64,000 bases of DNA, taken from Trypanosoma brucei (taxonomy: Eukaryota). The stretch covers positions 3,040,001 through 3,104,000 of the forward strand of contig CH464491.1 in NCBI GenBank assembly GCA_000002445.1. The letters run 5' to 3'. Below are positions 5,949-53,004 of this stretch, piece after piece. The position numbers and the translations under genes are program-made. The notes under the pieces were generated by a model, which was not told the DNA's origin, searched no databases, and saw nothing but the letters and a program-made list of their open reading frames with translations. Position 1 is the first letter of the stretch. Each line of letters opens with the position of its first letter.

Positions 5949-6854
5949 TAGAATGGAAAAAGTAGGGGAGCCATGAAGCCGCGTTCAGTGAAGGTTGCGC
6001 GCCGAGGCTACGGTGAGATCGATTCGTGTGCTTGAGGTTTTTCCTTCCGCAAGCAGCGCAAAGGATTATGAGCAGTGGGGGATCGAATATTGTTCGTTCA
6101 GTAATAAAGCGTGAAAGGGAAGGAGGGTGCGAGTGTGTGGAGAATGCGAAAATGGGCATGGGATTATTGAATGGGATATTACGAGTTACCGTCACGTAAA
6201 CGGACATGAGGTGTAAGTGGTGTAGCTTTATACATTGTTGGGGTCCCCCTTTTTAATGTGTTTCTGCATTTCCTACATTTTGGGTGCGTGGGGCTCAGTC
6301 CCATTGGAAACGCAGTTTTGTGGTGAGGATGTTGTTGTTGTGGAGCGCTGCTCCCTTTTGTAAGAACGACACAAGGCTGGTTGTCACTTTCTCCACTGTT
6401 AGGATAGTTGCCTTACTTTCATTTCGGACGGCCTCTTTCGTTAACTTCCCTCTTTCAAGCAATCCTTACACGTATGTTCAAATTCCACCGTTAGCGGGAG
6501 AAGAGTAAGGAAAAAGTTACTTTTTAAATACTCACACATCCAAATAAGAGGGTGAGGTTTTGCATTTGTGTGTTTGCGCGTAAGTGTATGTGCCCACTGG
6601 CATGCAAATGATAGGCCTCCTCCCTGGGGTATGAGGTGCGGGGGATGGAAATGTTTTCTCTGGAGCTGCGACCTCGTCCATGTAGTTTTCTCTCATTTCC
6701 TTCCTAACGGTCTTATCTCCTCCAAAAGGCAAGCGTAAGTTGCCGAGGGGCTCATATTAGATTAGTGACCAATATACTTGTGTCCAAGTTTAGACCTATA
6801 GGAAGTCCTCGCGGGTAACGGGACGCACTGAATAGGTGAACACCACAAAATAAG

Positions 6855-9800
6855 ATGCTTTCAGTTTACAAACCGCGCTTTCTTACGGGAGAAAAGGGAC
6901 GTGGAGACGGACGGGGAGGAAAACACGGAAGGCAAACTTTACTGGGTCCACCGTCCCGGGGAGCCGTATGGCCAGCAGTTGCAGGAGGGGGAGCATGGCC
7001 CATAGCTGCACCGGTGCACCTCAGCCCACTTCCTGTGCCGGTGGCAACGTCGCATTGGGCGCTCTCCGGCTGTCGATTGCCGGCTACCATTCCGACAGGG
7101 AAGCGTTTGATTGGGTCCTGTGTCAATGAGATGAGCAACCTCAACGATTCTGAGAAAGCGATATGTGAGCTCATGGTTGGCTTTTTGGAGCACAAATCTG
7201 CAACTGAGGCCGAGTGTATCATGTCGGAGGTGGACGAAATGGTTTGTTCCCGTCGCTTGCTCTCACAGTACAGTGGTGTGTACGCTAGTAAATGCCCCGG
7301 TGACGCAAATGGAGGGAAAGACGAACCGTTGCGTGGAAAAACTCAGCTTATTCGCTTCCTTCGGCAGCAGCAAGAGGAAAAGGAGGAGCGGGAGAAGAAC
7401 TGGGAGCAGAGGCGGCGCCAGCGCATCGCCAGGGAAGCAGCGGAGAGAAGAGAATCACGAGAGAGGTGGAAGAAAATGTTTCTGCACAACGTAGAGGGAA
7501 AAAGCAAAAGGGAAGCCCTTCCAAAAACAGCTAAGAGAAAGGCACAAATTGGAAGGTGTATCGACAAAGAAGCTGCCAATATAAAACACAAACAACGACG
7601 GTGTGAAGACGAGGACTTTAGATTAACATCTCTAAGCGATTCCACTTTCACTGACTCTTTATGCGGCTACCCACAACATGTGCCGAACGTGGCAAGGCCC
7701 ATCAGAGTGCCAGCTGCAACCGAGCGATTCGCTAATGCAAGCGAAAAACTCACTAGGGAGGTGGCAGGTGCGCAATATATACGAGTCCCAAGGGAAATGC
7801 CGACAAGCATACGCGTCGCTTCTTCTGACAGCGAGAATACGGAAGATATTATCGAAAAAACAGATAAGTTGGTGGGGGACAGGTTAGAGGTGTTCAAACA
7901 ACGGCAAAACACAAACGACACGAGATCCAAAGAATCATTTATTGCAGCAATTCAGAAAAGTTATAGCGCACAGGGTGATGAAAGACCACTCACGACAACA
8001 GAAAACCAGCAGCAAATGACAAAAAAAGATAATCAACTGAGAAGCACAGAAGTGGAGAAAAAAACCCAGGACCCAACATCAATTACAGCTACCATCCGAT
8101 ACACCAAACAGGAGGATGACATCAAAAATAAACAAAACGCCATTTCAGAAAGAGGACTCAGTACATCAACGAACCAAAAACAAACAGAAACATTAATTAC
8201 TTCTAACAATCAACATTCAGTTGATGAGCGCCACCAATCAGACGATCGACAGCACTCCAAACGTTCTGAATCCAAGAAGGAGTTGCAGGAATCATTGCAT
8301 TCCAACAAGTCTGCAGTGAAGGATGGTGAACCTGAACTTGAGGCTTCTCAAGGTTCGAAGAAGTCACAGCGGTCCCGTGAGTCTATTCGTGAGGGTTTTG
8401 CTGATGATTTGCAATCACAGGGTTCTCAACATTCTAAACGTTCTGAATCCAAGAAGGAGTTGCAGGAATCACTACATTCCAACAAGTCTGCAGTGAAGGA
8501 TGGTGAACCTGAACTTGAGGCTTCTCAAGGTTCGAAGAAGTCACAGCGGTCCCGTGAGTCTATTCGTGAAGGTCTTGCTGATGATTTGCAATCACAGGGT
8601 TCTCAACATTCTAAACGTTCTGAATCCAAGAAGGAGTTGCAGGAATCACTACATTCCAACAAGTCTGCAGTGAAGGATGGTGAACCTGAACTTGAGGCTT
8701 CTCAAGGTTCGAAGAAGTCACAGCGGTCCCGTGAGTCTATTCGTGAGGGTTTTGTTGATGATTTGCAATCACAGGGTTCTCAACATTCTAAACGTTCTGA
8801 ATCCAAGAAGGAGTTGCAGGAATCACTACATTCCAACAAGTCTGCAGTGAAGGATGGTGAACCTGAACTTGAGGCTTCTCAAGGTTCGAAGAAGTCACAG
8901 CGGTCCCGTGAGTCTATTCGTGAAGGTCTTGCTGATGATTTGCAATCACAGGGTTCTCAACATTCTAAACGTTCTGAATCCAAGAAGGAGTTGCAGGAAT
9001 CACTACATTCCAACAAGTCTGCAGTGAAGGATGGTGAACCTGAACTTGAGGCTTCTCAAGGTTCGAAGAAGTCACAGCGGTCCCGTGAGTCTATTCGTGA
9101 GGGTTTTGCTGATGATTTGCAATCACAGGGTTCTCAACATTCTAAACGTTCTGAATCCAAGAAGGAGTTGCAGGAATCACTACATTCCAACAAGTCTGCA
9201 GTGAAGGATGGTGAACCTGAACTTGAGGCTTCTCAAGGTTCGAAGAAGTCACAGCGGTCCCGTGAGTCTATTCGTGAGGGTCTTGCTGATGATTTGCAAT
9301 CACAGGGTTCTCAACATTCTAAACGTTCTGAATCCAAGAAGGAGTTGCAGGAATCACTACATTCCAACAAGTCTGCAGTGAAGGATGGTGAACCTGAACT
9401 TGAGGCTTCTCAAGGTTCGAAGAAGTCACAGCGGTCCCGTGAGTCTATTCGTGAGGGTTTTGTTGATGATTTGCAATCACAGGGTTCTCAACATTCTAAA
9501 CGTTCTGAATCCAAGAAGGAGTTGCAGGAATCATTGCATTCCAACAAGTCTGCAGTGAAGGATGGTGAACCTGAACTTGAGGCTTCTCAAGGTTCGAAGA
9601 AGTCACAGCGGTCCCGTGAGTCTATTCGTGAGGGTTTTGTTGATGATTTGCAATCACAGGGTTCTCAACATTCTAAACGTTCTGAATCCAAGAAGGAGTT
9701 GCAGGAATCATTGCATTCCAACAAGTCTGCAGTGAAGGATGGTGAACCTGAACTTGAGGCTTCTCAAGGTTCGAAGAAGTCACAGCGGTCCCGTGAGTCT

Positions 9801-12800
9801 ATTCGTGAGGGTTTTGTTGATGATTTGCAATCACAGGGTTCTCAACATTCTAAACGTTCTGAATCCAAGAAGGAGTTGCAGGAATCACTACATTCCAACA
9901 AGTCTGCAGTGAAGGATGGTGAACCTGAACTTGAGGCTTCTCAAGGTTCGAAGAAGTCACAGCGGTCCCGTGAGTCTATTCGTGAGGGTTTTGTTGATGA
10001 TTTGCAATCACAGGGTTCTCAACATTCTAAACGTTCTGAATCCAAGAAGGAGTTGCAGGAATCATTGCATTCCAACAAGTCTGCAGTGAAGGATGGTGAA
10101 CCTGAACTTGAGGCTTCTCAAGGTTCGAAGAAGTCACAGCGGTCCCGTGAGTCTATTCGTGAGGGTTTTGTTGATGATTTGCAATCACAGGGTTCTCAAC
10201 ATTCTAAACGTTCTGAATCCAAGAAGGAGTTGCAGGAATCATTGCATTCCAACAAGTCTGCAGTGAAGGATGGTGAACCTGAACTTGAGGCTTCTCAAGG
10301 TTCGAAGAAGTCACAGCGGTCCCGTGAGTCTATTCGTGAGGGTTTTGTTGATGATTTGCAATCACAGGGTTCTCAACATTCTAAACGTTCTGAATCCAAG
10401 AAGGAGTTGCAGGAATCACTACATTCCAACAAGTCTGCAGTGAAGGATGGTGAACCTGAACTTGAGGCTTCTCAAGGTTCGAAGAAGTCACAGCGGTCCC
10501 GTGAGTCTATTCGTGAAGGTCTTGCTGATGATTTGCAATCACAGGGTTCTCAACATTCTAAACGTTCTGAATCCAAGAAGGAGTTGCAGGAATCATTGCA
10601 TTCCAACAAGTCTGCAGTGAAGGATGGTGAACCTGAACTTGAGGCTTCTCAAGGTTCGAAGAAGTCACAGCGGTCCCGTGAGTCTATTCGTGAGGGTTTT
10701 GTTGATGATTTGCAATCACAGGGTTCTCAACATTCTAAACGTTCTGAATCCAAGAAGGAGTTGCAGGAATCACTACATTCCAACAAGTCTGCAGTGAAGG
10801 ATGGTGAACCTGAACTTGAGGCTTCTCAAGGTTCGAAGAAGTCACAGCGGTCCCGTGAGTCTATTCGTGAGGGTTTTGTTGATGATTTGCAATCACAGGG
10901 TTCTCAACATTCTAAACGTTCTGAATCCAAGAAGGAGTTGCAGGAATCATTGCATTCCAACAAGTCTGCAGTGAAGGATGGTGAACCTGAACTTGAGGCT
11001 TCTCAAGGTTCGAAGAAGTCACAGCGGTCCCGTGAGTCTATTCGTGAGGGTTTTGTTGATGATTTGCAATCACAGGGTTCTCAACATTCTAAACGTTCTG
11101 AATCCAAGAAGGAGTTGCAGGAATCACTACATTCCAACAAGTCTGCAGTGAAGGATGGTGAACCTGAACTTGAGGCTTCTCAAGGTTCGAAGAAGTCACA
11201 GCGGTCCCGTGAGTCTATTCGTGAGGGTTTTGTTGATGATTTGCAATCACAGGGTTCTCAACATTCTAAACGTTCTGAATCCAAGAAGGAGTTGCAGGAA
11301 TCACTACATTCCAACAAGTCTGCAGTGAAGGATGGTGAACCTGAACTTGAGGCTTCTCAAGGTTCGAAGAAGTCACAGCGGTCCCGTGAGTCTATTCGTG
11401 AAGGTCTTGCTGATGATTTGCAATCACAGGGTTCTCAACATTCTAAACGTTCTGAATCCAAGAAGGAGTTGCAGGAATCACTACATTCCAACAAGTCTGC
11501 AGTGAAGGATGGTGAACCTGAACTTGAGGCTTCTCAAGGTTCGAAGAAGTCACAGCGGTCCCGTGAGTCTATTCGTGAGGGTTTTGTTGATGATTTGCAA
11601 TCACAGGGTTCTCAACATTCTAAACGTTCTGAATCCAAGAAGGAGTTGCAGGAATCATTGCATTCCAACAAGTCTGCAGTGAAGGATGGTGAACCTGAAC
11701 TTGAGGCTTCTCAAGGTTCGAAGAAGTCACAGCGGTCCCGTGAGTCTATTCGTGAGGGTTTTGTTGATGATTTGCAATCACAGGGTTCTCAACATTCTAA
11801 ACGTTCTGAATCCAAGAAGGAGTTGCAGGAATCACTACATTCCAACAAGTCTGCAGTGAAGGATGGTGAACCTGAACTTGAGGCTTCTCAAGGTTCGAAG
11901 AAGTCACAGCGGTCCCGTGAGTCTATTCGTGAAGGTCTTGCTGATGATTTGCAATCACAGGGTTCTCAACATTCTAAACGTTCTGAATCCAAGAAGGAGT
12001 TGCAGGAATCACTACATTCCAACAAGTCTGCAGTGAAGGATGGTGAACCTGAACTTGAGGCTTCTCAAGGTTCGAAGAAGTCACAGCGGTCCCGTGAGTC
12101 TATTCGTGAGGGTTTTGTTGATGATTTGCAATCACAGGGTTCTCAACATTCTAAACGTTCTGAATCCAAGAAGGAGTTGCAGGAATCATTGCATTCCAAC
12201 AAGTCTGCAGTGAAGGATGGTGAACCTGAACTTGAGGCTTCTCAAGGTTCGAAGAAGTCACAGCGGTCCCGTGAGTCTATTCGTGAGGGTTTTGTTGATG
12301 ATTTGCAATCACAGGGTTCTCAACATTCTAAACGTTCTGAATCCAAGAAGGAGTTGCAGGAATCATTGCATTCCAACAAGTCTGCAGTGAAGGATGGTGA
12401 ACCTGAACTTGAGGCTTCTCAAGGTTCGAAGAAGTCACAGCGGTCCCGTGAGTCTATTCGTGAGGGTTTTGTTGATGATTTGCAATCACAGGGTTCTCAA
12501 CATTCTAAACGTTCTGAGTCCAAGAAGGAGTTGCAGGAATCACTACATTCCAACAAGTCTGCAGTGATGACTAATGGCTTCTCTGTTGATGTTAGGAATT
12601 CTGGTGGTTGTCGACAGGAAAAGAACTTTTCGGATTGTGTTGGACCGTTGTTTTCCTCGAGGTCGCATTTGTCTGTTCACATGGATACACGTGGTGATGT
12701 TGATGTTTCTCCTCCTTTTCATGATATTTCTAGTGCTGGTGCTGGTGCTGAAGCTCCGCTGTCAATGGGACAGTCTGTTTCTTCTTTAGATGCTTTACCG

Positions 12801-12833
12801 ATGCCGGAGTTTGTTGGGCCGCTTAAAGGTTAA
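6855..12833 (+). CDS. Giant repetitive protein: charged N-terminal region, about 24.5 tandem 59-aa repeats, short unique C-terminus
   Basis: Single 1992-aa ORF. The repeat unit SQGSQHSKRSESKKELQESLHSNKSAVKDGEPELEASQGSKKSQRSRESIREGFVDDLQ is reiterated head-to-tail. The N-terminal region of about 370 aa is K/E/R-rich. The true start could be Met93 at 7131, because the first 92 codons are Gly/Pro/Ala-rich and read like 5'UTR. Confidence 0.75.
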   Translation: MLSVYKPRFLTGEKGRGDGRGGKHGRQTLLGPPSRGAVWPAVAGGGAWPIAAPVHLSPLPVPVATSHWALSGCRLPATIPTGKRLIGSCVNEMSNLNDSEKAICELMVGFLEHKSATEAECIMSEVDEMVCSRRLLSQYSGVYASKCPGDANGGKDEPLRGKTQLIRFLRQQQEEKEEREKNWEQRRRQRIAREAAERRESRERWKKMFLHNVEGKSKREALPKTAKRKAQIGRCIDKEAANIKHKQRRCEDEDFRLTSLSDSTFTDSLCGYPQHVPNVARPIRVPAATERFANASEKLTREVAGAQYIRVPREMPTSIRVASSDSENTEDIIEKTDKLVGDRLEVFKQRQNTNDTRSKESFIAAIQKSYSAQGDERPLTTTENQQQMTKKDNQLRSTEVEKKTQDPTSITATIRYTKQEDDIKNKQNAISERGLSTSTNQKQTETLITSNNQHSVDERHQSDDRQHSKRSESKKELQESLHSNKSAVKDGEPELEASQGSKKSQRSRESIREGFADDLQSQGSQHSKRSESKKELQESLHSNKSAVKDGEPELEASQGSKKSQRSRESIREGLADDLQSQGSQHSKRSESKKELQESLHSNKSAVKDGEPELEASQGSKKSQRSRESIREGFVDDLQSQGSQHSKRSESKKELQESLHSNKSAVKDGEPELEASQGSKKSQRSRESIREGLADDLQSQGSQHSKRSESKKELQESLHSNKSAVKDGEPELEASQGSKKSQRSRESIREGFADDLQSQGSQHSKRSESKKELQESLHSNKSAVKDGEPELEASQGSKKSQRSRESIREGLADDLQSQGSQHSKRSESKKELQESLHSNKSAVKDGEPELEASQGSKKSQRSRESIREGFVDDLQSQGSQHSKRSESKKELQESLHSNKSAVKDGEPELEASQGSKKSQRSRESIREGFVDDLQSQGSQHSKRSESKKELQESLHSNKSAVKDGEPELEASQGSKKSQRSRESIREGFVDDLQSQGSQHSKRSESKKELQESLHSNKSAVKDGEPELEASQGSKKSQRSRESIREGFVDDLQSQGSQHSKRSESKKELQESLHSNKSAVKDGEPELEASQGSKKSQRSRESIREGFVDDLQSQGSQHSKRSESKKELQESLHSNKSAVKDGEPELEASQGSKKSQRSRESIREGFVDDLQSQGSQHSKRSESKKELQESLHSNKSAVKDGEPELEASQGSKKSQRSRESIREGLADDLQSQGSQHSKRSESKKELQESLHSNKSAVKDGEPELEASQGSKKSQRSRESIREGFVDDLQSQGSQHSKRSESKKELQESLHSNKSAVKDGEPELEASQGSKKSQRSRESIREGFVDDLQSQGSQHSKRSESKKELQESLHSNKSAVKDGEPELEASQGSKKSQRSRESIREGFVDDLQSQGSQHSKRSESKKELQESLHSNKSAVKDGEPELEASQGSKKSQRSRESIREGFVDDLQSQGSQHSKRSESKKELQESLHSNKSAVKDGEPELEASQGSKKSQRSRESIREGLADDLQSQGSQHSKRSESKKELQESLHSNKSAVKDGEPELEASQGSKKSQRSRESIREGFVDDLQSQGSQHSKRSESKKELQESLHSNKSAVKDGEPELEASQGSKKSQRSRESIREGFVDDLQSQGSQHSKRSESKKELQESLHSNKSAVKDGEPELEASQGSKKSQRSRESIREGLADDLQSQGSQHSKRSESKKELQESLHSNKSAVKDGEPELEASQGSKKSQRSRESIREGFVDDLQSQGSQHSKRSESKKELQESLHSNKSAVKDGEPELEASQGSKKSQRSRESIREGFVDDLQSQGSQHSKRSESKKELQESLHSNKSAVKDGEPELEASQGSKKSQRSRESIREGFVDDLQSQGSQHSKRSESKKELQESLHSNKSAVMTNGFSVDVRNSGGCRQEKNFSDCVGPLFSSRSHLSVHMDTRGDVDVSPPFHDISSAGAGAEAPLSMGQSVSSLDALPMPEFVGPLKG
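8240..12566 (+). repeat. Coding tandem array, period 177 nt (59 codons), about 24.5 copies, over 97% identical between units
   Basis: Period measured from recurring acgttctgaatccaagaagg at about 8261, 8438, 8615 and onward. Units differ mainly at two sites: gagggttttgttgat (FV), gaaggtcttgctgat (LA) or gagggttttgctgat (FA), and the synonymous tcattgcat vs tcactacat. Confidence 0.9.
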
Positions 12834-13162
12834 ATTTTTTGTCGTTTAATTTTTTCTCTGTCCCTAAAATTCTAACAATTTTTATATACGTTGTGTTGCT
12901 ATAATATTAGTCTGCTTGTTGTTGTTCCTTTATTATTTGATTGAGAAATATTTCGTTGAGTTTATTTTGATTATATGTGGATCTGTTTCAACGGGATTGT
13001 TTGCTTTTGTTGTGTTTATACTTTCCCCCTGTTGTTATCGTTTCTTTGTCCGATTTATTATACAATATAAAGTTGCTTAGTTCTCTTTAATATTCACTTA
13101 CCTTTCCTGCTACGTATGTATTTTCCTTTTTGTGATATGTAAGTTATGTCTATGCACTACGT

Positions 13163-13181
13163 GGTGTGTGTGTGTGTGTGT
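13163..13181. repeat. (GT)9 microsatellite
   Basis: ggtgtgtgtgtgtgtgtgtgtc in the spacer after the repeat-protein gene. Confidence 0.8.
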
Positions 13182-13647
13182 CTTGCTGGGGCATGTGGTT
13201 GTCCCTACTTTTGTCTTTGGAGAGGGGAGTTGTAAGTGGTGAATTAGAGATTCTGAAGCTCTCGTGGGCCGTGCCTCATGTCGGTCGCGTGGCTGTAACT
13301 TTGTCTTAGTGGTTTGCTTCTGCGCTTACTTTTCATCCCCTGTGTTGCAACGGTGTCAGTGTATGCCTGCATATGTATTTTCGTTTTCATACTTATATAT
13401 ATATACAAGACTTCGGGAGTTTGCTTGCACCCGAGATGCTGTTGCTAGTGTCGTCGTAGTGGCGGGTTCTATTCTACTAGGGGCTCGTCTCCTTTTTGTT
13501 ATTCATGAACCTCAATCCGTGTTTTTAACGGGGAGCTCAGTCATTTCTACCGTCTCTCCCCGCCTTGTTTTGTGTATATGCCCAGAGGGGACAACAGGAC
13601 ACACAGGTAGGTGCTGTTCTTTTGCTTGGTGAGTATTTCGTTGCAAC

Positions 13648-15366
13648 ATGTTTAAACGCACCCGAGGTGAAGATGAAGTAGTTGAGGTGTACGCAACTCT
13701 ACTACGGCAGAGTGGGGCTCGTGCCATTGAGCGTATACGTCAGCGACGTGGCAGCGGTACCAACAGCGTCATGCCGATTGATGCCCTCGTCATTCGTTAC
13801 GCTATGTGGTTTCTTGATACGTCCGCGTTCCCCGCTGTCAGTTATGTAACGCAAGCGCAGCGGGTCGTGACGGAGGCGATTGAGCGCGTTTCGTACCCAC
13901 AACATTTCAGTTTTATTCCACTTTCGACGCTTGTGGAATGTCTTGTGTCAGAGAACACAGCAGAGGTTATGCAACAGACAGTCGTCTCCATTGAAGAATT
14001 TATTGATGCTCGAGATGCGTTGGGAAGGTGGATTGACGAAAATATTGGTAACGCAGGCGGGGAACGGTACGAACGATACAACCATTACAGCGGCGGCGAA
14101 AAAGATGAAGAGGCTGAGATTGCTCTTGAGCGGGCGGGCATACTGTGGCGCAGTGCGTTGTACTGGGTGGCGGTATTTGAATACATTGAGGCCCTCTCGC
14201 TCAGCAGTGCTAAGGTAAATGTCTTCGCATTACGACCCAGGTATGAACAGGAGTTAATGAATCTGCTCAACTCTATTGCAGCACCCAAAGACTCGGTGTA
14301 CTGGAAACGGCAACAGGGTGTGAATGCCCCTACCGACAATCTTTCGATGCTGCCATTAAGCGCGAGTGCCACTACCCGTGACGGTGGCGAAATAGCTGAT
14401 AGCTCAACCGAAGGAGAGGACACGGAGAGGATGCAAGCAGACGGCGGTGACAACACTTCGTCTCGTGCAACAGAGCCGACTACGGCAACAAAGGAGGCGG
14501 ATCCTAATGAGGTTGGTAGTGACGCCACTGATGGGATTGGCAAGCTTTTGGTCGATCTTATAGCACTTGTGAACTGTCCTTCTGAGACCCCTGGGTCTGG
14601 TACTAGAATAAACCCAATGTTTTACACCATGGTTCATGCACGGCTGAATGTTATTGCGGCCTGTGAACGCCTTAACCGCTTTGGTAGCTCTGCGCGTGTC
14701 GCTCCCCCGCCGCTCACCGCGTCATTGCAGTCGCTTCAATCTCAGCGTGAGGCTCTCAATGCTGGTCGGCATCGGCGTGATGCTCACTTAGAAACCAGTG
14801 GGGAAATTGGACTTCCGTTGGATTTTGTGCCAAGTGAGGCGTACCTGCGGGCGGCACTGGAGAGGGAAAATATCACGCTTGAGGAGGACGAGGAGCTTTT
14901 CAAGGATGAGATTGTAGACTACTATAAGCGTCAGCAACAGCATCAACATGCCCCACCACGCGATAGGAGTGGCCCAAAGGAGCCCACCGTCTTGATGAAA
15001 CCGCATCGTTTCTGCAAGGTGAAGACAGGCTACACATGGACTCAGTACAATCGCACGCATTATGATGTACGCTCGAATCCCCCACCCCGAAGTGTGCTGT
15101 GGTATGAGTTTACCCTTTTTTACCCGGCACTCGCTAGCACGAAACGCGACATGAGCCGAATCTACCACATTGAAGACACATCCAGAGGATCCAAGGATGA
15201 TTACTGTGTGTTGGTGTTCTCAGTGGGGCCACCGTATGCGGATGTGGCCTATCAAATTGTTCGAAAGCAGTGGGACCCACGCCCGGGAGGGGTTCGCGCA
15301 AGTTTTGACAGCAGCGGTACTTATCGGCTTTTCTTCCGCTTTACCAACAGCAATTATCGACGGTAG
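13648..15366 (+). CDS. Cactin homolog (spliceosome-associated C-terminal Cactin domain)
   Basis: The C-terminus YEFTLFYPALA...VLVFSVGPPYADVAYQIVRKQWD...YRLFFRFTNSNYRR matches the conserved Cactin C-terminal domain (recalled human YKFNIFYPDLI...GPPYEDIAFKIV...RYRYRR). Confidence 0.7.
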   Translation: MFKRTRGEDEVVEVYATLLRQSGARAIERIRQRRGSGTNSVMPIDALVIRYAMWFLDTSAFPAVSYVTQAQRVVTEAIERVSYPQHFSFIPLSTLVECLVSENTAEVMQQTVVSIEEFIDARDALGRWIDENIGNAGGERYERYNHYSGGEKDEEAEIALERAGILWRSALYWVAVFEYIEALSLSSAKVNVFALRPRYEQELMNLLNSIAAPKDSVYWKRQQGVNAPTDNLSMLPLSASATTRDGGEIADSSTEGEDTERMQADGGDNTSSRATEPTTATKEADPNEVGSDATDGIGKLLVDLIALVNCPSETPGSGTRINPMFYTMVHARLNVIAACERLNRFGSSARVAPPPLTASLQSLQSQREALNAGRHRRDAHLETSGEIGLPLDFVPSEAYLRAALERENITLEEDEELFKDEIVDYYKRQQQHQHAPPRDRSGPKEPTVLMKPHRFCKVKTGYTWTQYNRTHYDVRSNPPPRSVLWYEFTLFYPALASTKRDMSRIYHIEDTSRGSKDDYCVLVFSVGPPYADVAYQIVRKQWDPRPGGVRASFDSSGTYRLFFRFTNSNYRR

Positions 15367-15850
15367 GGTGATTGGCCCCTGGGTTTCTGTTTCTTTATTT
15401 CCCCATGCGGGTGCCGTTGGCGATTGGTTCCCGAGACCCAAAGGTAAGTGCGTCTGTGCGTGGTGGGGATATGCATGCGGTGACACAACAGTACCTGACT
15501 CGTACAAAGATGTCACTAATGCTGGGGTTGTTTTTTGAATGCCAATATGTGTGGCATCTCCGTGTGTGCAGAGTACCACCACTGCGCCCTCTCTATTTCT
15601 TTTCCTCTCCTCCACCCTTCCAGTCAGCAGCAAACCGAATTGACTGTTTTGGCCTCCGATCGCTCGCCTGCTCATATTTTTTTCTTGCTTCTACCTCTCC
15701 ACGGTTCTATTTGCACACATTGAGATCGAGACAACTTGATCTGAGCTTAGTTTTCCGGGAGGGACCTAAGCTCCCTTCCGCTCAGTCCATATAAGTAGAT
15801 ATATCTACACGAAATACGTTAGCGCGTTCGTCTAGCGGATCGAGGAAAAG

Positions 15851-28510: not shown

Positions 28511-28856
28511 TCTAAGGTGGGAATAATGAAGCAGTACACCAGCTATTCATCTTATACACGCTAACCACCGTGTTTGTGTGGCAGACGCCAACCAGTAAGT
28601 ATAACTTGTAGGAAAATATTACTGTGTCTTGCACATGCATATACATATATATGTACATATACTTTTTTTCTTGTGCTTTCTCTCGAAACAACCGGATAGT
28701 TTATTTAAGCCTAAATACGCCCACATACGCACGTAGTAATAAATTACAGCTAAGTTGAGGTAAAACAAGAAAGGTACTGAGGGAAATACGGGAAGAGTCA
28801 GCTCACGTAAGATCCCATAGCTACTTTTTAAATTGAACGCAAACAACTCGCGCAAA

Positions 28857-30008
28857 ATGCTCCGTCGTTTGGCCACTCATGGACTCCAAGCTACGTGCCT
28901 GACTTCGGAGAAGTTGGCGTACCGCTACTGCCTCAGCATTTGTGTCCCCACTATTGCCGAGTCCATCAGCAGTGGGAAGGTTGTGGGATGGACTAAGAAG
29001 GTTGGTGACGCTGTTGCCGAAGATGAGATTATTTGTCAAATTGAGTCGGACAAACTCAATGTGGATGTACGCGCCCCTGCCGCGGGTGTGATCACGAAGA
29101 TAAACTTCGAAGAGGGCACTGTTGTCGATGTTGGCGCCGAGCTTTCAACCATGAAGGAAGGTGAGGCCCCCGCCGCCAAGGCCGAAACAGCCGACAAACC
29201 GAAGCAGAATGCACCGGCGGCGGCAGCACCTCCCAAAGCTTCCCCAACTGAAGCCGCGCCAAAGCCAGCGCCCGCGGCTGCTCCCGTCACCTCACGTGGG
29301 GCGGACCCGCGCGTACGTAGCGTTCGCATCTCCTCCATGCGGCAGCGCATTGCGGATCGGCTGAAGGCAAGCCAGAACACGTGTGCCATGCTCACGACAT
29401 TCAACGAGATTGATATGACCCCTCTTATCGAGTTGCGCAATCGTTACAAGGATGATTTCTTCAAGAAGAACGGGGTGAAACTTGGATTCATGTCGCCATT
29501 CGTGAAGGCCTGTGCTATTGCACTTCAGGACGTTCCTATTGTCAACGCATCCTTCGGCACTGACTGCATCGAATACCACGACTACGTGGACATCAGTGTT
29601 GCCGTATCCACACCGAAAGGTCTTGTTGTGCCGGTCCTTCGTGACGTGCAGAACTCCAACTTTGCCCAAATTGAAAAGCAAATCGCAGACTTTGGTGAGC
29701 GCGCCCGCTCGAACAAGCTGACCATGGCGGAGATGACCGGTGGCACATTCACTATTAGCAACGGCGGCGTGTTTGGCTCGTGGATGGGGACACCTATCGT
29801 CAACCCACCACAGAGCGCTATTCTTGGTATGCACGCCACGAAGAAGAAGCCGTGGGTTGTGGGCAACTCCGTCGTCCCGCGTGACATAATGGCGGTTGCC
29901 CTCACGTACGATCACCGTCTCATCGACGGCAGTGACGCCGTAACATTTCTCGTTAAGGTGAAGAACCTCATTGAGGATCCCGCACGTATTGTGCTCGACC
30001 TCGCCTAA
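28857..30008 (+). CDS. Dihydrolipoamide succinyltransferase (2-oxoglutarate dehydrogenase E2 component), mitochondrial
   Basis: Single lipoyl domain with IESDKLNVDVRAPAAGVI, an Ala/Pro-rich linker, and a catalytic domain carrying DHRLIDG. N-terminal MLRRLATHG is presequence-like. The track start at 28833 is TTG; the first ATG is 28857. Confidence 0.8.
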   Translation: MLRRLATHGLQATCLTSEKLAYRYCLSICVPTIAESISSGKVVGWTKKVGDAVAEDEIICQIESDKLNVDVRAPAAGVITKINFEEGTVVDVGAELSTMKEGEAPAAKAETADKPKQNAPAAAAPPKASPTEAAPKPAPAAAPVTSRGADPRVRSVRISSMRQRIADRLKASQNTCAMLTTFNEIDMTPLIELRNRYKDDFFKKNGVKLGFMSPFVKACAIALQDVPIVNASFGTDCIEYHDYVDISVAVSTPKGLVVPVLRDVQNSNFAQIEKQIADFGERARSNKLTMAEMTGGTFTISNGGVFGSWMGTPIVNPPQSAILGMHATKKKPWVVGNSVVPRDIMAVALTYDHRLIDGSDAVTFLVKVKNLIEDPARIVLDLA

Positions 30009-30299
30009 ATTGACGCACTTTGTTTGGATAAGGTAAATAAGCAAAGGCATTTTCTTCTCCCCCCCCTATTGTTGTTGTTACTAATATGAATGGGGCGGTG
30101 GCGGTGGCGGGAGGAATTAAGGGGTATAAACTCAAGTGCGTGCACACGCCGGTGTGTCTGCAATGGAAGAGGAGAGAAAATAAATAAAATGAAATCAGAA
30201 GAATGATCACTGACACTCGTGAAGGTGATGTGTGTTTCAACATCGAGTGACCCAACGAACTATTTTATTTGTTGTTTTATTTTTCCCCGATACGATAGC

Positions 30300-49637: not shown

Positions 49638-50770
49638 TAATCGCTGCTTGCGTACACGTACCGTAAACAGAACATGTTTTTCTTTTGTGTGTGTGTGTGT
49701 GCATGTATGGTGGGCGTATGCCATGTTATGTGGATGGGAGGGGAGACATTAGGTGGAACGCACAGACAAGATGCGATTCTCACCGATGGTGGGGAAATGA
49801 CACACATATAATATCTATATCTATATATATATATATATAGATGTTAAGGATGGGAGGAAGTAGAGTGGAAGGTGATGGATGGGACTTTCCTTCACACACC
49901 AAGGGAAAAAAGTGGGGAGGGGAGTGTAACGGTGCCTTTCTTGCCCTTTAAACTCGAGTCCGCTAGTGCATTTGAGGCGTGTTGTCTCCAACCACTTGTT
50001 TGTTTTCTCCTATAAAAGCTGTAGCACCATTGTTTGGAGTGTCCGACGCAGTGAGCAAACGAAACCGGAGAAAATGTGTTGCATGTGTTCACTGAAGCGC
50101 TCGGGCGGTATTGTAATCGGGAAAAGGTCACGACCCCATAACAAGAGAAAAATTGAAAATAGGTCGTGGTCGCCCGCATGCACTTCGCTTTTCCTTTTAC
50201 GGGTAAGGTTTTTTTTTTCCATCACCATGTGGTGTTTTACTTATCAGCTCCTCTGTTTGTAGCCCATGTGTCTTTGTGACCAGTGGCTCGTTATGTTGCT
50301 TTATATATTTATGTACATATATATATATATATATATATAAGGAAGACAATAAAAGGGATGTTTTCGGCGTTAGTAAACAGACATTTCACTATTGTTTTTG
50401 TTACTCTTATTATTGTTACCGTTACTGTTGTTGTTTTGTTTTCGGTTCTTGACCTCTTTTCCTTCTCACGTGAATGCATCGCAGTATCGCCAGTGCGGAA
50501 TTCCATCACCGCCACCACTACGACCACCAACGAGCACGTAAGCTTATCGCGAGGTTGTTAGGCTGCAGCACAGTTATTTCTTTTTTTTTTTTAGTGCATA
50601 GCCGTTACCAAAGCGACCAACGGGCTCTCCAGTTTTCGCACACATGAAGAGGGAACGAGGAAGGGTGGGTGTAAGCGCAAGGTTTCAATTCGGTGTGATG
50701 TGTGTTTGATATTATGAATGTTTGTTTATTTATTTATACATGTTTCCTATCCTTGTGTGCGTGCCTGCGT

Positions 50771-50806
50771 GCGTGTGTGTGTGTGTGTGTGTGTGTTTGT
50801 GTGTGT
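50771..50806. repeat. (GT)n microsatellite (about 17 units, one interruption)
   Basis: gcgtgtgtgtgtgtgtgtgtgtgtgtttgtgtgtgtag inside the 3.4 kb ORF-free spacer. Confidence 0.85.
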
Positions 50807-53004
50807 AGTTCTTGTGGTAGGCAAAGATGTGAACACAGAGGTGTAGGGGAGGGAACATAGGAGTCACTGTCATAATTTCTTTAACCTTTCCTACCGCTCC
50901 TCATCCTTTTCCTTCATTTTATTTTCTCCTTTTCAGTTGATACACTTCGTTGCCCTTAAGGAGGGTTGGGTGGTAGGAGAGGTGAAGTGAAACTTTCTGG
51001 TTTGTAGCTGTGGGTATTTGACTGTGGGGGAAAGAGGGAGGCGGGTGGTGGATGAGAGGTGATGAGGTCCTTCCTCAGGTTTACTTGTAATCGTTGGGAT
51101 TGTGATTGTGCCCATTGATGTCATAAGAGAGGAAAGGGGGGAGGAGTATTGTGGGCGTAATTAATGGGAATGGGAACGATGATGTGTGGTGCGCGTGCCG
51201 GCTGGGAATCCACGCTACCAAGTACATCAACTCTTAGTTTTGGCTACTCCTTGTTACCCCGCGTTTCGTTTCTTTTTGTTTGTTTTATTATTATTTTCAT
51301 AGTGCCCCGTTCCCGTTTTTGTGTTCCGCTCTGCGTGTCTATTAGGGCTTTTGATTGATTCCGGTGGTTCTTTCGGTGTGGTACGTTGGGTGTCGCTTTT
51401 GGCCTACCGAGGGAGCGTAAAAGCAAACTAATAAAGATAATAGTGAATGGATCTTTTTATTGTCAGCAAGAGAAAAGAGGTAACAGAGAGGAAGGAATGA
51501 AAAAAAAAATTATGAAGGGAGTAGTGTGTGGTGTTGACGGCGTTTGGGGTGCGATGCGTCAGCACAATGAAGGTCGCGCAATATGTCGCTTTCTTTCATT
51601 TGTGCATAACCGCGCTAAGCAAAATTCAGATATGTGAGGCGAATAGGAGGGGAGGGGGACGGAGGCGGAGGCAGAGGCAGAGCCGCCCCCCTTTTTTTTC
51701 TTTTCTCTAATCCCTGCTGTTCGCAACACGTTTCACCGCTCTTTAGTTTATTTTCTTGAACGAGATCGAGTTAAGGGGTGGCGAGGGAAATGTATGAATA
51801 ATGAGTAATAACTAATACTAACGGCAATAGTAACTAAAGTAACGAAACAAAAGGAAAAAAGGCAACAAAAAGAATGGATAATGACAAGAGAGGAGGTAGA
51901 TAGGGCGACTAACACTAACGTAATGTGATTCGCGCGTACATTATACACATATAGGTACAACTGTACTTGTGTGTTCCACGTGAGGAAGAAAAGGAACAAA
52001 GGAAGGTGCAAGGAAGATAAGGTAAGATGAGAAGGAGGGGGCGGCGCTAAAGAAAAGAAACGGAGGAGGGAGGAAAAGAAAAAAATAAAGCGTTTAAAAC
52101 GGAAAGAAAGGAAAAAAAAATGAGAAAAAAAATACTGTAAGGAAACAAATAGCGATACAGTTCGACTATGGTGATGCGAGGGGTGGGTATAAAAAGATAC
52201 GAAGCGCGAGAGGGCAAGTTGGTAGCCTTAATTTTTGGTTATTCGTTTCCTTCCTTCCTTCTCTTCTCTTCTCTCTTCCCCCCTTTCTTTTCCTTTTATC
52301 CGTTTTCTCTTCCCTCATTTTGCTTTTTTATTGTTACGTTGGGTGGGGGGATTGCATAGGTGAGAAGGAAGAGAAAGGTGGTAGCAAGCTGAGTAAGATG
52401 TGCCACAACATTTTGTTTTTTTTTCTTTCTCTGGGTTCAAAGATATCCTGATGGTTCGAACTACGGAAAGAAGGAAAGAGCAGTGGCGTGGTACCCAGCA
52501 CGCTGCTTTCCGCTAATGTTTGAAGTGGTTGTTAGCCGTTGGCGCGAGATTAAAGCGTAATGAAGACACGTTTCCCCCTTTCCCCCTCCTGTGTCCATCT
52601 TCCTTTCGGTAGTTCTGCCGTCAGTGCCGTTTGCGGAATACCATTTTAGTTTGTTAGATGACATATCAACCTGTTGGGCTCTTTTTCTTTACCGGACCAA
52701 ACCAATATTTAATAAAGAACACATATATATAAATTATACTGGTTTTCGTATTTGAAAGCCCTGAGCGAGCGCAGGAAATCCACCCTTTTCGCAACCGCAG
52801 CGTGCGGTGGAATCTTACAGAGTTCGGGAAAAAGAACAGGAGGCTCGCACAAAACCACGATTGGCTTTCAGTGTTTATCAAAGCGGAGGTAAATAACAGA
52901 AGGCATTGGGAGAGGCTGGTTTTCAGATAGGGAGGAAGTCTTGGAGGCATTCAAAGGATTAAAGAGGGAGGAAGGTGTGGAGGGAGCGTAACAAACACTA
53001 AGCC

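What the first reader, a model, noticed from the sequence alone, without database searches (positions are those of the whole stretch)
8240..12566. 4.3 kb perfectly in-frame tandem array (about 24.5 x 177 nt) encoding a 59-aa Ser/Lys/Glu/Gln-rich repeat inside a 1992-aa ORF
The unit SQGSQHSKRSESKKELQESLHSNKSAVKDGEPELEASQGSKKSQRSRESIREGFVDDLQ is repeated head-to-tail with over 97% nucleotide identity and no frame loss. Repeats this long and this identical encoding charged, low-complexity polypeptides are characteristic of kinetoplastid cytoskeletal, flagellar or immunodominant repeat antigens (GM6, MARP and FRA-type proteins). I do not recognise this repeat sequence itself. It could be an uncharacterised structural or antigenic protein. 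Its copy number is very likely allelically variable and prone to assembly collapse.
Basis: partly seen in the sequence, partly recalled or inferred. Interest (0 to 1): 0.6.

Follow-up and report, generated by a model that had tools for sequence, protein, structure and literature searches.

The report
Giant repeat in uncharacterised trypanosome protein
The 4.3-kb repeat is real: it is the middle of an annotated but unstudied Trypanosoma brucei gene (at the position of Tb927.11.11600) whose relatives in other trypanosomatids lack it, except T. congolense, which has a different repeat at the same spot. It is an ordinary example of a well-known class of parasite repeat proteins, and its function is still unknown.

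Summary
Observation confirmed. Window 8259-12567 holds 24 full 177-nt units plus a 61-nt partial (TRF 24.3 copies). Units are at least 97.2% identical pairwise, only 5 nucleotide positions vary, and only 1 of 6 frames is open. The array lies inside the 1992-aa ORF 6855-12833.

The window is T. b. brucei TREU927 chromosome 11: five neighbouring proteins are byte-identical to TREU927 entries. The ORF sits between eIF3e (Tb927.11.11590) and cactin (Tb927.11.11610), the slot of Tb927.11.11600, "hypothetical protein, conserved". I found no paper that characterises it.

Syntenic orthologues exist across Trypanosoma and in Leishmania (436-904 aa). They share a ~50-75-aa N-terminal helical block and have no long array. 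T. congolense is the exception, with a different 24-aa unit repeated at least 30 times at the same position.

Copy number is 24 in TREU927, 24 in the independent PacBio-based IVM-t1 assembly (different variant pattern) and 16 in DAL972. Two short-read or draft contigs break inside the array.

The protein has no Pfam, PDB or fold match, no detectable similarity to GM6/MARP-type antigens, no signal peptide and no TM segment. Best reading: an intracellular, largely disordered, Ser-rich, charge-neutral spacer/scaffold domain expanded in salivarian trypanosomes and homogenised by recombination. The "cytoskeletal/flagellar antigen" label is untested. Interest is modest.

The parts
6855..12833 (+). 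Complete ORF of 1992 aa (221 kDa, pI 8.6). Positional equivalent of Tb927.11.11600, 'hypothetical protein, conserved'.
   Evidence: ORF list and translation. It lies between eIF3e = Tb927.11.11590 and cactin = Tb927.11.11610. The RIT-seq table lists Tb927.11.11600 with a gene-model length about 3x that of cactin, matching the start-to-start spacing in the window.
6855..7130 (+). N-terminal 92 residues, predicted disordered. Start-codon choice (M1 or M93) is unresolved.
   Evidence: AF2 pLDDT is 30-40 for residues 1-89. The orthologues also have open 80-115-aa extensions upstream of the conserved block. There is only one, synonymous, difference from DAL972 here. The nearest upstream polypyrimidine tract is at 6696-6705, and there is no in-frame ATG between 6651 and 6855.
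7140..7484 (+). Conserved N-terminal module (about residues 96-210): two helices (98-113, 116-140) carrying the family signature L..E..IC.LMV..L.HK...EA..I..EV.....SRRLL..YSGVYA, then ...QLIR.L at the start of a long charged helix (157-210).
   Evidence: Alignments A1/A2/A3 across 8 species, with invariant C, M, RLL, Y.GV and L columns. AF2 pLDDT is about 70-77 for the two helices and 85-97 for the long helix. hhalign against the L. infantum slot protein gives E = 6e-5. No Pfam or PDB match.
7485..8258 (+). Low-complexity S/T/Q/K/E-rich linker, predicted disordered and fast-evolving. It contains a second small motif shared with T. congolense (PREMPTS...TDK..G.RL). Its last ~20 nt are a degenerate lead-in to the array.
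   Evidence: AF2 pLDDT below 50 for 215-328 and 372-527. Tb/Tco alignment. 14 fixed differences between the TREU927 allele and the DAL972/IVM-t1 alleles in 6855-8258. Lag-177 self-similarity begins at about 8250.
8259..12567 (+). Tandem array: 24 full 177-nt (59-aa) units plus a 61-nt partial. The unit is KRSESKKELQESLHSNKSAVKDGEPELEASQGSKKSQRSRESIREG[F/L][V/A]DDLQSQGSQHS.
   Evidence: Per unit: 13 Ser, 11 K/R, 11 D/E (net charge 0), GRAVY -1.59 and an internal half-repeat SQGS..S.RS.ES (10 of 2000 shuffles reach the score); 4 S/TQ motifs per unit counted circularly. AF2 on 3 units gives a ~40-residue helix plus a ~16-residue coil per unit at low confidence (pLDDT 62, pTM 0.20).
12568..12833 (+). 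Unique C-terminal tail of 88 aa (acidic, pI 5.0) plus the stop codon. It lacks the LPWE[IL] terminus seen in the T. grayi, T. melophagium, T. theileri and L. infantum orthologues.
   Evidence: Translation. No PWE/WE[LI] motif in any frame of 12561-13400. Orthologue C-termini. No PDB match.

Best explanation
SHOWN. The feature is the central repeat domain of a real, annotated but uncharacterised T. brucei gene, at the position of Tb927.11.11600 on chromosome 11.
- The gene belongs to a trypanosomatid-wide family that always lies just downstream of eIF3e.
- The only part conserved in all eight species compared is a small N-terminal helical block. In Trypanosoma a long charged helix follows it.
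- The rest of the protein is low-complexity and evolves quickly.
- In the two salivarian species I could examine, the region after the N-terminal part carries a huge in-frame array: 59 aa x 24 in T. brucei, and 24 aa x at least 30 in T. congolense.
- Stercorarian and other Trypanosoma species and Leishmania carry only microsatellite-like tracts there.
- The T. brucei array evolves in concert. The same few variant sites are shuffled among units, and different variants dominate in different strains. Copy number is 24, 24 and 16 in three assemblies.

INFERRED. The array arose and is kept homogeneous by unequal sister-chromatid or allelic recombination and gene conversion between units. The protein is intracellular (no signal peptide, no TM segment). 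The array is a non-globular, highly hydrophilic, exactly charge-neutral, Ser/Gln-rich chain with at most transient helices. The most likely role is therefore a long, flexible, multivalent spacer or scaffold, probably regulated by phosphorylation (about 312 Ser and about 97 SQ sites). The conserved N-terminal helical module would supply anchoring or oligomerisation. What selection would maintain is length and bulk physicochemistry, not the exact sequence. Like other intracellular repeat proteins of trypanosomes, it would be expected to raise strong antibody responses once parasites lyse, but that would be a consequence and not its cellular function.

CONFIDENCE. The overall figure of 0.5 blends about 0.9 for the identity, family and evolution part with about 0.35 for the spacer/scaffold function.
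For: Identity and locus:
- Neighbour proteins are byte-identical to TREU927 entries.
- TrypTag primers designed on TREU927 match the window exactly.
- Gene order matches published IDs.
- Tb927.11.11600 is 'hypothetical protein, conserved', with a gene model about 3x that of cactin.

Family:
- phmmer hits only in Trypanosoma spp..
- Syntenic slot genes in T. melophagium, T. theileri, T. congolense and L. infantum.
- Conserved block alignments.
- hhalign E = 6e-5 against Leishmania.

Arrays:
- Long-unit arrays only in T. brucei and T. congolense.
- Both arrays have net charge 0, are S/Q-rich, have 6.8 and 8.3 S/TQ per 100 aa against 0.5-1.8 elsewhere, and share the words SQGSK and SQRS.

Concerted evolution and copy number:
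- Unit signatures in three strains.
- IVM-t1 is an independent de novo PacBio+MiSeq assembly.

Non-globular and intracellular:
- AF2 models.
- Composition, and 8/59 hydrophobic residues per unit.
- Maximum KD19 of 1.04.
- No Pfam, PDB or Foldseek match.
Against: - Function is inferred from composition and architecture only. I could retrieve no localisation, interaction, expression or phosphorylation data.
- Bloodstream-form RNAi gave no library drop-out at 24 h and only a mild S-phase skew (0.40 against about 0.33), and the gene was not flagged as a hit. The gene may be dispensable in culture.
- pN/pS of about 0.58 in the unique N-terminal region, a frameshift in DAL972 and a split ORF in IVM-t1 are compatible with weak constraint.
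- In a homogenised array whose unit is a multiple of 3, the open frame is inherited by every copy and is not independent evidence of selection.
- Homology between the Tb and Tco units is not demonstrated (p about 0.05-0.07). The shared properties could be common descent, convergence or chance.
- The AF2 models rest on 1-5 sequences and have low confidence outside residues 90-210.
- The link to the ID Tb927.11.11600 is by gene order and relative length, not by sequence. The window's exact 1992-aa product is not on record in the protein collection.
Confidence: 0.5

Rival explanations
1. One reading: a cytoskeletal, flagellar or FAZ-associated repeat protein of the GM6/MARP/FRA type, in which the repeats bind microtubules or build a structural lattice and which is immunodominant in infection.
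For: The general architecture (a very large ORF with a long near-identical in-frame array) is the same as in those proteins. The N-terminal module includes a long, strongly basic/acidic helix (residues 157-210) that could bind a polymer. The protein is intracellular.
Against: - No sequence similarity: phmmer with the N-terminus plus two units against 1.84 billion representatives, which include T. brucei proteomes, returned only orthologues.
- The protein is absent from all PDB chains, including T. brucei doublet-microtubule cryo-EM entries.
- The unit has net charge 0, so it is not a basic microtubule-binding repeat, and only 8/59 residues are hydrophobic.
- No cytoskeleton-type RNAi phenotype: >4C ratio 0.38, not flagged.
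- Localisation and serology could not be tested.
Confidence: 0.15
2. Neutral runaway expansion: the array has no function of its own. A recombination-prone tract in a tolerant disordered linker expanded by slippage and unequal exchange and is simply tolerated. The gene may be decaying in some lineages.
For: - Most orthologues do without any array, and the same region holds variable polyQ or (TN)n tracts in other species.
- pN/pS is about 0.58, and divergence is about 10-fold higher than in flanking genes.
- DAL972 has a 1-nt frameshifting deletion. The IVM-t1 ORF is split and no gene is called.
- No strong RNAi phenotype.
- Frame maintenance comes automatically in a homogenised 3n array.
Against: - Two salivarian species each keep arrays of at least 2.2-4.3 kb at the same position, with matching bulk properties: net charge 0, S/Q-rich, similar SQ density.
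- All three non-synonymous unit variants are conservative or mild (F/L, V/A, K/N), and no stop or indel occurs in the TREU927 or DAL972 arrays.
- The IVM-t1 indels are plausibly long-read consensus errors at about 2.4x PacBio coverage (my estimate from the read numbers).
- Unit codon usage in the coding frame resembles that of neighbouring genes (0.79 against 0.76-0.82).
Confidence: 0.25
3. Assembly artefact: the true genome has only one or a few units, and the 24 copies result from mis-assembly of the reference.
For: Repeat arrays like this do break assemblies: the OVI contig starts in the last unit, the T. congolense contig ends in its array, and DAL972 has 16 units against 24.
Against: Three assemblies from different strains and technologies all contain long arrays. 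IVM-t1 (de novo PacBio RS II, mean read 8.5 kb, plus MiSeq; TREU927 used only to order contigs) has exactly 24 full units with its own variant pattern and private substitutions, so it was not copied from the reference. The variant units in TREU927 are interspersed in a non-periodic order, which is not what duplicated reads would give.
Confidence: 0.03

Closest known systems
Tb927.11.11600 and its T. b. gambiense allele (CBH18182.1 / XP_011780446.1 / UniProt D0A931, 'hypothetical protein, conserved', flagged LOW QUALITY PROTEIN)
   Same: Same locus between eIF3e and cactin. The DAL972 allele is 96% identical over the N-terminus plus first units, with the same 59-aa unit, the same partial last unit and the same C-terminal tail.
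   Different: DAL972 has 16 units, not 24, a private 1-nt deletion that frameshifts the N-terminal linker, and a different set of dominant unit variants. The window's exact 1992-aa product is not on record in the protein collection.
T. congolense IL3000 orthologue (contig CAEQ01000555.1; gene at L011 3112-6511, truncated by the contig end)
   Same: Same syntenic slot. It has the same N-terminal block and the PREMPTS motif (31% identity over 377 aa). It carries a giant in-frame array starting after about 410 aa that is net-neutral, S/Q-rich and contains SQGSK and SQRS.
   Different: The unit is 24 aa (72 nt) repeated at least 30 times, not 59 aa x 24. Unit-to-unit similarity is not significant (p about 0.05-0.07).
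Array-less orthologues: T. grayi KEG08337.1 (500 aa), T. melophagium KAH9600252.1 (550 aa), T. theileri slot gene (552 aa), T. cruzi marinkellei EKF38367.1 (436 aa), T. rangeli ESL09257.1 (436 aa), L. infantum slot gene (904 aa)
   Same: They share the conserved N-terminal helical block. Synteny downstream of eIF3e was shown directly for T. melophagium, T. theileri and L. infantum; for T. grayi and T. c. marinkellei the eIF3e and orthologue contig lengths coincide (8514 and 11623 nt), which suggests they lie on one contig. The remainder of each protein is low-complexity.
   Different: They have no long-unit tandem array, only polyQ or (TN)n tracts. Several end in LPWE[IL], which T. brucei lacks.
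GM6 / FRA (FAZ/flagellar antigens, ~68-aa repeats) and MARP (~38-aa microtubule-binding repeats) of trypanosomes. Repeat lengths are from my own knowledge; their use as repeat antigens is documented in PMC12921242.
   Same: Class-level resemblance: very large intracellular proteins dominated by near-identical in-frame tandem repeats whose copy number is hard to assemble.
   Different: No detectable sequence similarity. The unit is charge-neutral and poor in hydrophobic residues. There is no evidence for cytoskeletal localisation or seroreactivity.
NUP-1, the lamin-like nucleoskeletal protein of T. brucei with about 20 near-perfect 144-aa repeats (from my own knowledge; not checked with tools here)
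   Same: A large T. brucei protein in which a long, highly homogenised repeat array forms an extended structural element between unique termini.
   Different: NUP-1 repeats are coiled-coil. This unit has only 8/59 hydrophobic residues, too few for a heptad core, and AF2 gives helix plus coil at low confidence. No sequence relationship was detected.

Membership tests
Trypanosomatid large tandem-repeat (TR) proteins (descriptive class) | A long array of near-identical, in-frame repeat units making up much of a large ORF | tested here: met
   24.3 x 177 nt, at least 97.2% pairwise identity, 72% of a 1992-aa ORF
Trypanosomatid large tandem-repeat (TR) proteins (descriptive class) | Recognised by infection sera (B-cell antigenicity) | not testable with these tools
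   No serology data retrievable. Goto et al. 2011 (PMC3225496) is not held.
GM6/FRA and MARP repeat antigens | Repeat unit homologous to the GM6/FRA or MARP unit | tested here: not met
   phmmer of the N-terminus plus 2 units against 1.84 billion representatives, which include T. brucei proteins, found only 5 hits at E <= 0.001, all orthologues or alleles of this gene. The test is indirect because the GM6 and MARP sequences themselves were not in hand.
GM6/FRA and MARP repeat antigens | Association with the flagellum, FAZ or subpellicular microtubules | not testable with these tools
   TrypTag supplements held as text are truncated and lack the gene. The protein is absent from T. brucei axoneme cryo-EM chains, which is weak negative evidence only.
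Tb927.11.11600 orthologue family (trypanosomatid conserved hypothetical, eIF3e-adjacent) | Located immediately downstream of eIF3e on the same strand | tested here: met
   Window; DAL972, IVM-t1, T. melophagium, T. congolense, L. infantum and T. theileri loci
Tb927.11.11600 orthologue family (trypanosomatid conserved hypothetical, eIF3e-adjacent) | N-terminal block with C..M...L ... RLL..Y.GV.A, then L...L | tested here: met
   Alignment A3 has 13 invariant columns across 8 species. hhalign E = 6e-5 for Leishmania.
Tb927.11.11600 orthologue family (trypanosomatid conserved hypothetical, eIF3e-adjacent) | C-terminal LPWE[IL] motif | tested here: not met
   Present in T. grayi, T. melophagium, T. 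theileri and L. infantum. Absent from T. brucei in all frames. It is also absent from the T. c. marinkellei and T. rangeli models, so it is not universal in the family.
Coiled-coil structural repeat proteins (NUP-1-like) | Heptad-compatible hydrophobic core (about 2 of every 7 residues) along the repeat | tested here: not met
   The unit has L4, V2, I1, F1 = 8/59 (14%) hydrophobic residues and GRAVY -1.59. AF2 gives helix plus coil with pTM 0.20. No dedicated coiled-coil predictor was available.
S/TQ cluster domain (SCD) proteins, typical PIKK (ATM/ATR) substrates (definition from my own knowledge: at least 3 S/TQ within 100 residues) | S/TQ density of at least 3 per 100 aa | tested here: met
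   6.8 per 100 aa in the T. brucei unit (4 per 59 aa; 1.35 expected from composition, P = 0.017) and 8.3 per 100 aa in the T. congolense unit
S/TQ cluster domain (SCD) proteins, typical PIKK (ATM/ATR) substrates (definition from my own knowledge: at least 3 S/TQ within 100 residues) | Actual phosphorylation at SQ sites, or a role in the DNA-damage response | not testable with these tools
   The phosphoproteome supplements held are truncated and lack the gene. The cell-cycle phospho column is blank in the RIT-seq table.

The most novel reading that the evidence does not exclude
Salivarian (African) trypanosomes have specifically evolved, and keep homogenised, a giant charge-neutral, SQ-dense Ser/Gln-rich array in this otherwise small trypanosomatid protein, with 59-aa units in T. 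brucei and 24-aa units in T. congolense. On this reading the array has a lineage-specific function tied to the extracellular bloodstream lifestyle. One possibility is a massive multivalent phospho-acceptor scaffold or sink for SQ-directed (ATM/ATR-type) or other Ser kinases. Another is a species-specific immunodominant 'smokescreen' antigen released on lysis. The locally elevated haplotype divergence (1.0% against no more than 0.1% in flanking genes) would then reflect diversifying or balancing selection.
Probability: 0.12. Interest if true: 0.6.

Novelty: new member of a known kind. Interest (0 to 1): 0.3.

Why it matters
Large tandem-repeat proteins are a familiar feature of trypanosomatid genomes, and this ORF is already annotated in the T. 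brucei reference, so the array itself is not a discovery.

The follow-up adds three things:
- A gene family for it: a conserved N-terminal helical module present from Leishmania to Trypanosoma, always next to eIF3e.
- Evidence that the giant array is restricted to the salivarian species sampled, with a different unit in T. brucei and in T. congolense at the same site.
- A clear case of concerted evolution, with strain-specific homogenisation.

Practical value:
- The two species-specific units are obvious candidates for species-discriminating serodiagnostic peptides for animal trypanosomosis.
- The locus is a convenient marker for array-length and haplotype typing.
- It is a tractable case for asking whether such arrays are functional spacers or tolerated expansions.

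None of this would much surprise a kinetoplastid specialist.

Tried and rejected
1. Word-index protein search with a condensed construct and with the conserved-block alignment. Both returned nothing. These are false negatives: the exhaustive phmmer search found the family, and the same tool does return trypanosomatid eIF3e. I did not read the nulls as orphan status.
2. Exact look-up of the window's ORF product from M1 and from M93, and of the MCM6 locus. The target product is not on record, so the accession (probably EAN80111 / XP_829223 / Q383C0, by numbering) stays inferred.
3. Pfam on the window protein and all orthologues, PDB by sequence and by profile and Foldseek against PDB. Nothing was significant. 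The weak guanylate kinase (E about 0.3) and axoneme (E about 7) hits are noise.
4. 'Proto-unit' idea, that the 59-aa unit derives from a single-copy segment in array-less orthologues. Local alignments score no better than shuffles, so I rejected it.
5. Homology of the T. brucei and T. congolense units. The result is marginal (score 41 against 30 +/- 6; p about 0.05-0.07) and I left it as inconclusive.
6. A hidden LPWE[IL] C-terminus in another frame or downstream. None found.
7. Literature:
   - No main-text mention of Tb927.11.11600, Tb11.01.3470, Q383C0, EAN80111, XP_829223 or D0A931.
   - The supplements of the TrypTag paper, its preprint, the nuclear proteome and the cell-cycle phosphoproteome are stored truncated and lack the gene.
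   - Urbaniak 2013 and Goto 2011 are not held.
   - Only the RIT-seq cell-cycle screen lists the gene.
8. Deriving the annotated CDS length from the RIT-seq TPM values. The lengths used there are not CDS lengths, because the ratios fit start-to-start gene spacing. They support the identity of the gene but not a copy number.
9. T. vivax. No usable locus: the only candidate eIF3e contig is about 2 kb.

Full report
OBSERVATION. Tandem Repeats Finder reports a single array at 8259-12567 with period 177, 24.3 copies, 98% matches, no indels and score 8338. It is the only array in the 64-kb window with a period above 21 nt. Read in register, it consists of 24 full units (8259-12506) and a 61-nt partial unit. 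Units differ from the consensus at 0-3 positions, and only five nucleotide positions vary: 37 and 39 (CTA/TTG Leu), 135 (GAG/GAA Glu), 139 (F/L) and 143 (V/A). The least similar pair of units is 172/177 identical, or 97.2%. A degenerate lead-in begins near 8240-8250. The array lies in the 1992-aa ORF 6855-12833, and only one of the six frames of the unit is free of stop codons.

SOURCE AND LOCUS. All 24 ORFs of at least 200 aa but one lie on the + strand, and they are intronless eukaryotic housekeeping genes: eIF2B-epsilon-like, eIF3e, cactin, MCM6, GCD14, Rft1, 2-oxoacid dehydrogenase E2, V-ATPase B, an eIF4E family member and PIF1. This is the signature of a kinetoplastid polycistron.
- eIF3e matches the T. 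cruzi eIF3e chain of PDB 7ASE at E = 7e-185, about 75% identical by eye from the printed alignment.
- Exact look-ups show that the window's eIF3e, cactin, two hypothetical proteins and MCM6 are byte-identical to T. b. brucei TREU927 entries EAN80110 and EAN80112-80115.
- TrypTag primers designed on TREU927 for Tb927.11.11610 match window 15284-15446 perfectly.
- Published tables give eIF3e = Tb927.11.11590, cactin = Tb927.11.11610 and MCM6 = Tb927.11.11640.

The repeat ORF therefore occupies the slot of Tb927.11.11600. That ID is listed as 'hypothetical protein, conserved' in the RIT-seq cell-cycle screen. The gene-model lengths implied there have ratios 3.02: 1: 0.73 for 11600: 11610: 11620, and the start-to-start spacings in the window have ratios 3.08: 1: 0.69. 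The assignment is by order and size, not by sequence, because the window's exact product is not on record.

RELATIVES. Two word-index searches returned nothing, and these proved to be false negatives. An exhaustive phmmer search with the N-terminus plus two units against 1.84 billion cluster representatives found five proteins:
- the T. b. gambiense DAL972 allele (1520 aa, 96% identical, 'LOW QUALITY PROTEIN');
- shorter proteins of 436-550 aa from T. grayi, T. melophagium, T. cruzi marinkellei and T. rangeli.

Using eIF3e as an anchor, I fetched the syntenic slot in further species. T. melophagium (550 aa), T. theileri (552 aa), T. congolense (at least 1133 aa, truncated by the contig end) and L. 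infantum (904 aa) all have a gene there. All share a block of about 50-75 residues: L..E..IC.LMV..L.HK...EA..I..EV.....SRRLL..YSGVYA, then ...QLIR.L (alignments A1-A3). The Leishmania protein aligns to the Trypanosoma profile with E = 6e-5 and shares the C-terminal LPWEI with T. grayi, T. melophagium and T. theileri. T. brucei lacks that terminus in every frame. The gene is thus a trypanosomatid-wide conserved hypothetical, not an orphan.

THE ARRAY IS LINEAGE-SPECIFIC. TRF on each orthologous gene shows long-unit arrays only in T. brucei (177 nt x 24.3) and T. congolense (72 nt x at least 30.1, unit DSVAELRVSQRSQGSKVPQEAQPG, running off the contig). The others have only hexanucleotide-type or polyQ tracts.
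- The two arrays start at equivalent positions, after about 410-468 residues. The N-terminal regions are 31% identical over 377 aa.
- Their units are not significantly alike (score 41 against 30 +/- 6 for shuffles, p about 0.05-0.07).
- They do share the words SQGSK and SQRS. Both are exactly charge-neutral, Ser/Gln-rich, and have 6.8 and 8.3 S/TQ motifs per 100 aa, against 0.5-1.8 in all non-repeat regions and all other orthologues.
- The T. brucei unit itself contains an internal half-repeat, SQGSQHSKRSESKKE ~ SQGSKKSQRSRESIRE; 10 of 2000 shuffles reach that score.
- I found no proto-unit in the array-less orthologues.

COPY NUMBER AND CONCERTED EVOLUTION.
- DAL972 has 16 full units plus the same partial.
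- IVM-t1 has 24 full units. It was assembled de novo from PacBio RS II reads of mean length 8.5 kb plus MiSeq, and TREU927 was used only for contig ordering. PacBio coverage was low: 7,508 reads, which I estimate at about 2.4x.
- Variants fall at the same five or six positions in all three strains but in different combinations. At nt 37/39/102/135/139/143, TREU927 is dominated by TGGGTT, CAGGTT and CAGACC, DAL972 by TAGATT and TAGACC, and IVM-t1 by TGGATT and TAGATT. A135 is fixed in DAL972 and IVM-t1 but present in only 5 of 24 TREU927 units, and C37/A39 occurs only in TREU927. This is the classic pattern of homogenisation by unequal exchange and conversion within arrays.
- IVM-t1 has a few 1-2-nt indels that split the ORF, so no gene was called. 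These are plausibly consensus errors.
- The T. equiperdum OVI contig begins inside the last unit, and the T. congolense contig ends inside its array.

RATE OF EVOLUTION. In the 1404-nt unique N-terminal region, TREU927 differs from DAL972 at 18 substitutions (12 non-synonymous, 6 synonymous; pN/pS about 0.58) plus a DAL972-private 1-nt deletion at the position equivalent to window 7896. Fourteen of these differences are shared by IVM-t1, so there are two haplotype classes about 1.0% apart. The flanking eIF3e (0-1 of 1242 nt) and cactin (2 of 1719 nt) are nearly identical. The gene is weakly constrained, or under some form of diversifying or balancing selection. The data cannot tell which.

PROTEIN PROPERTIES.
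- No Pfam family, no PDB relative by sequence or profile and no Foldseek match.
- AF2 with the 5-sequence alignment: residues 1-89 disordered; helices at 98-113 and 116-140 (pLDDT about 70-77); a long charged helix at 157-210 (pLDDT 85-97); below 50 thereafter.
- AF2 on three units alone gives a ~40-residue helix plus a ~16-residue coil per unit, at pLDDT 62 and pTM 0.20.
- The unit has 13 Ser, 11 K/R, 11 D/E, GRAVY -1.59 and only 8 hydrophobic residues. That is too few for a coiled-coil core.
- There is no hydrophobic segment (maximum KD19 = 1.04) and no signal-peptide-like N-terminus.

EXPERIMENTAL DATA FOUND. The only data I found are from the bloodstream-form RIT-seq cell-cycle screen. Library TPM went from 166 to 182 after 24 h of RNAi. 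Normalised G1/S/G2M fractions were 0.33/0.40/0.28, the <2C ratio 0.21 and the >4C ratio 0.38. The gene was not flagged, and the columns for cell-cycle-regulated mRNA, protein and phosphorylation are blank.

INTERPRETATION. Shown: the identity of the locus, the gene family, the restriction of the array to the two salivarian species sampled, concerted evolution, and the lack of similarity to characterised repeat antigens. Inferred: the array is an intracellular, non-globular, phosphorylatable polyampholyte spacer or scaffold attached to a conserved helical anchoring or oligomerisation module, and what selection maintains, if anything, is length and bulk chemistry. The main rival is neutral expansion in a tolerant linker. 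Assembly artefact is essentially excluded.

VERDICT. This is a real, correctly described feature in an already annotated but uncharacterised gene, and a new member of the well-known class of trypanosomatid tandem-repeat proteins. It has a tidy evolutionary story and some diagnostic potential, but nothing mechanistically surprising so far.

Noticed in passing
window 6855-8258, compared with L001 3001-4403 and L005 3212-4615: The unique N-terminal region of this gene shows two haplotype classes. TREU927 differs from both DAL972 and IVM-t1 at the same 14 sites (1.0%), while the flanking eIF3e and cactin genes differ at 0-2 sites each. The result is a local island of divergence centred on the repeat gene.
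   Followed up: partly
L001 (DAL972), position equivalent to window 7896: A private 1-nt deletion in an A-run frameshifts the DAL972 gene. This is why RefSeq flags it LOW QUALITY PROTEIN and why about 47 residues of its model differ. Sequencing error and real decay in clonal T. b. gambiense cannot be distinguished here.
   Followed up: partly
L011 4348-6511 (T. congolense IL3000 contig CAEQ01000555.1): The T. congolense orthologue carries its own 72-nt (24-aa) array of at least 30 copies at 96% identity. The contig ends inside it, so the annotated protein (1133 aa) is truncated and the true size is unknown.
   Followed up: yes
C-termini of the orthologues: P0002, P0003, L013 10569-12227, L012 12322-15036: A conserved C-terminal LPWE[IL] motif, preceded by a second WEL in the Trypanosoma species, is present in T. 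grayi, T. melophagium, T. theileri and L. infantum. It is missing in T. brucei and in the T. c. marinkellei and T. rangeli models. It could be a short linear interaction motif.
   Followed up: partly
L005 2306-10000 (IVM-t1, CM010682.1): No gene is called between eIF3e and cactin in the IVM-t1 annotation although the full 24-unit gene is there. A few 1-2-nt indels in the array split the ORF into three pieces. This shows how low-coverage long-read consensus errors can hide repeat genes from annotation.
   Followed up: yes
tool behaviour: The word-index homology search returned nothing for this family, even when the query alignment contained family members that are in the collection. The exhaustive phmmer search found them, and the word-index tool does find trypanosomatid eIF3e. 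Nulls from that tool should not be read as orphan status for low-complexity or eukaryotic queries.
   Followed up: yes
window 49638-53004: A stretch of about 3.4 kb between the eIF4E-family gene and the acyl-CoA dehydrogenase gene has no ORF of at least 100 aa on either strand. It contains (TA)19 at 50302-50339 and a TGTG array at 50754-50806. It is probably a long UTR or intergenic region.
   Followed up: no
window 29292-30050 (- strand): This is the only ORF of at least 200 aa on the minus strand (252 aa), and it lies entirely inside the + strand 2-oxoacid dehydrogenase E2 gene (28833-30008). It is most likely a spurious antisense ORF.
   Followed up: no
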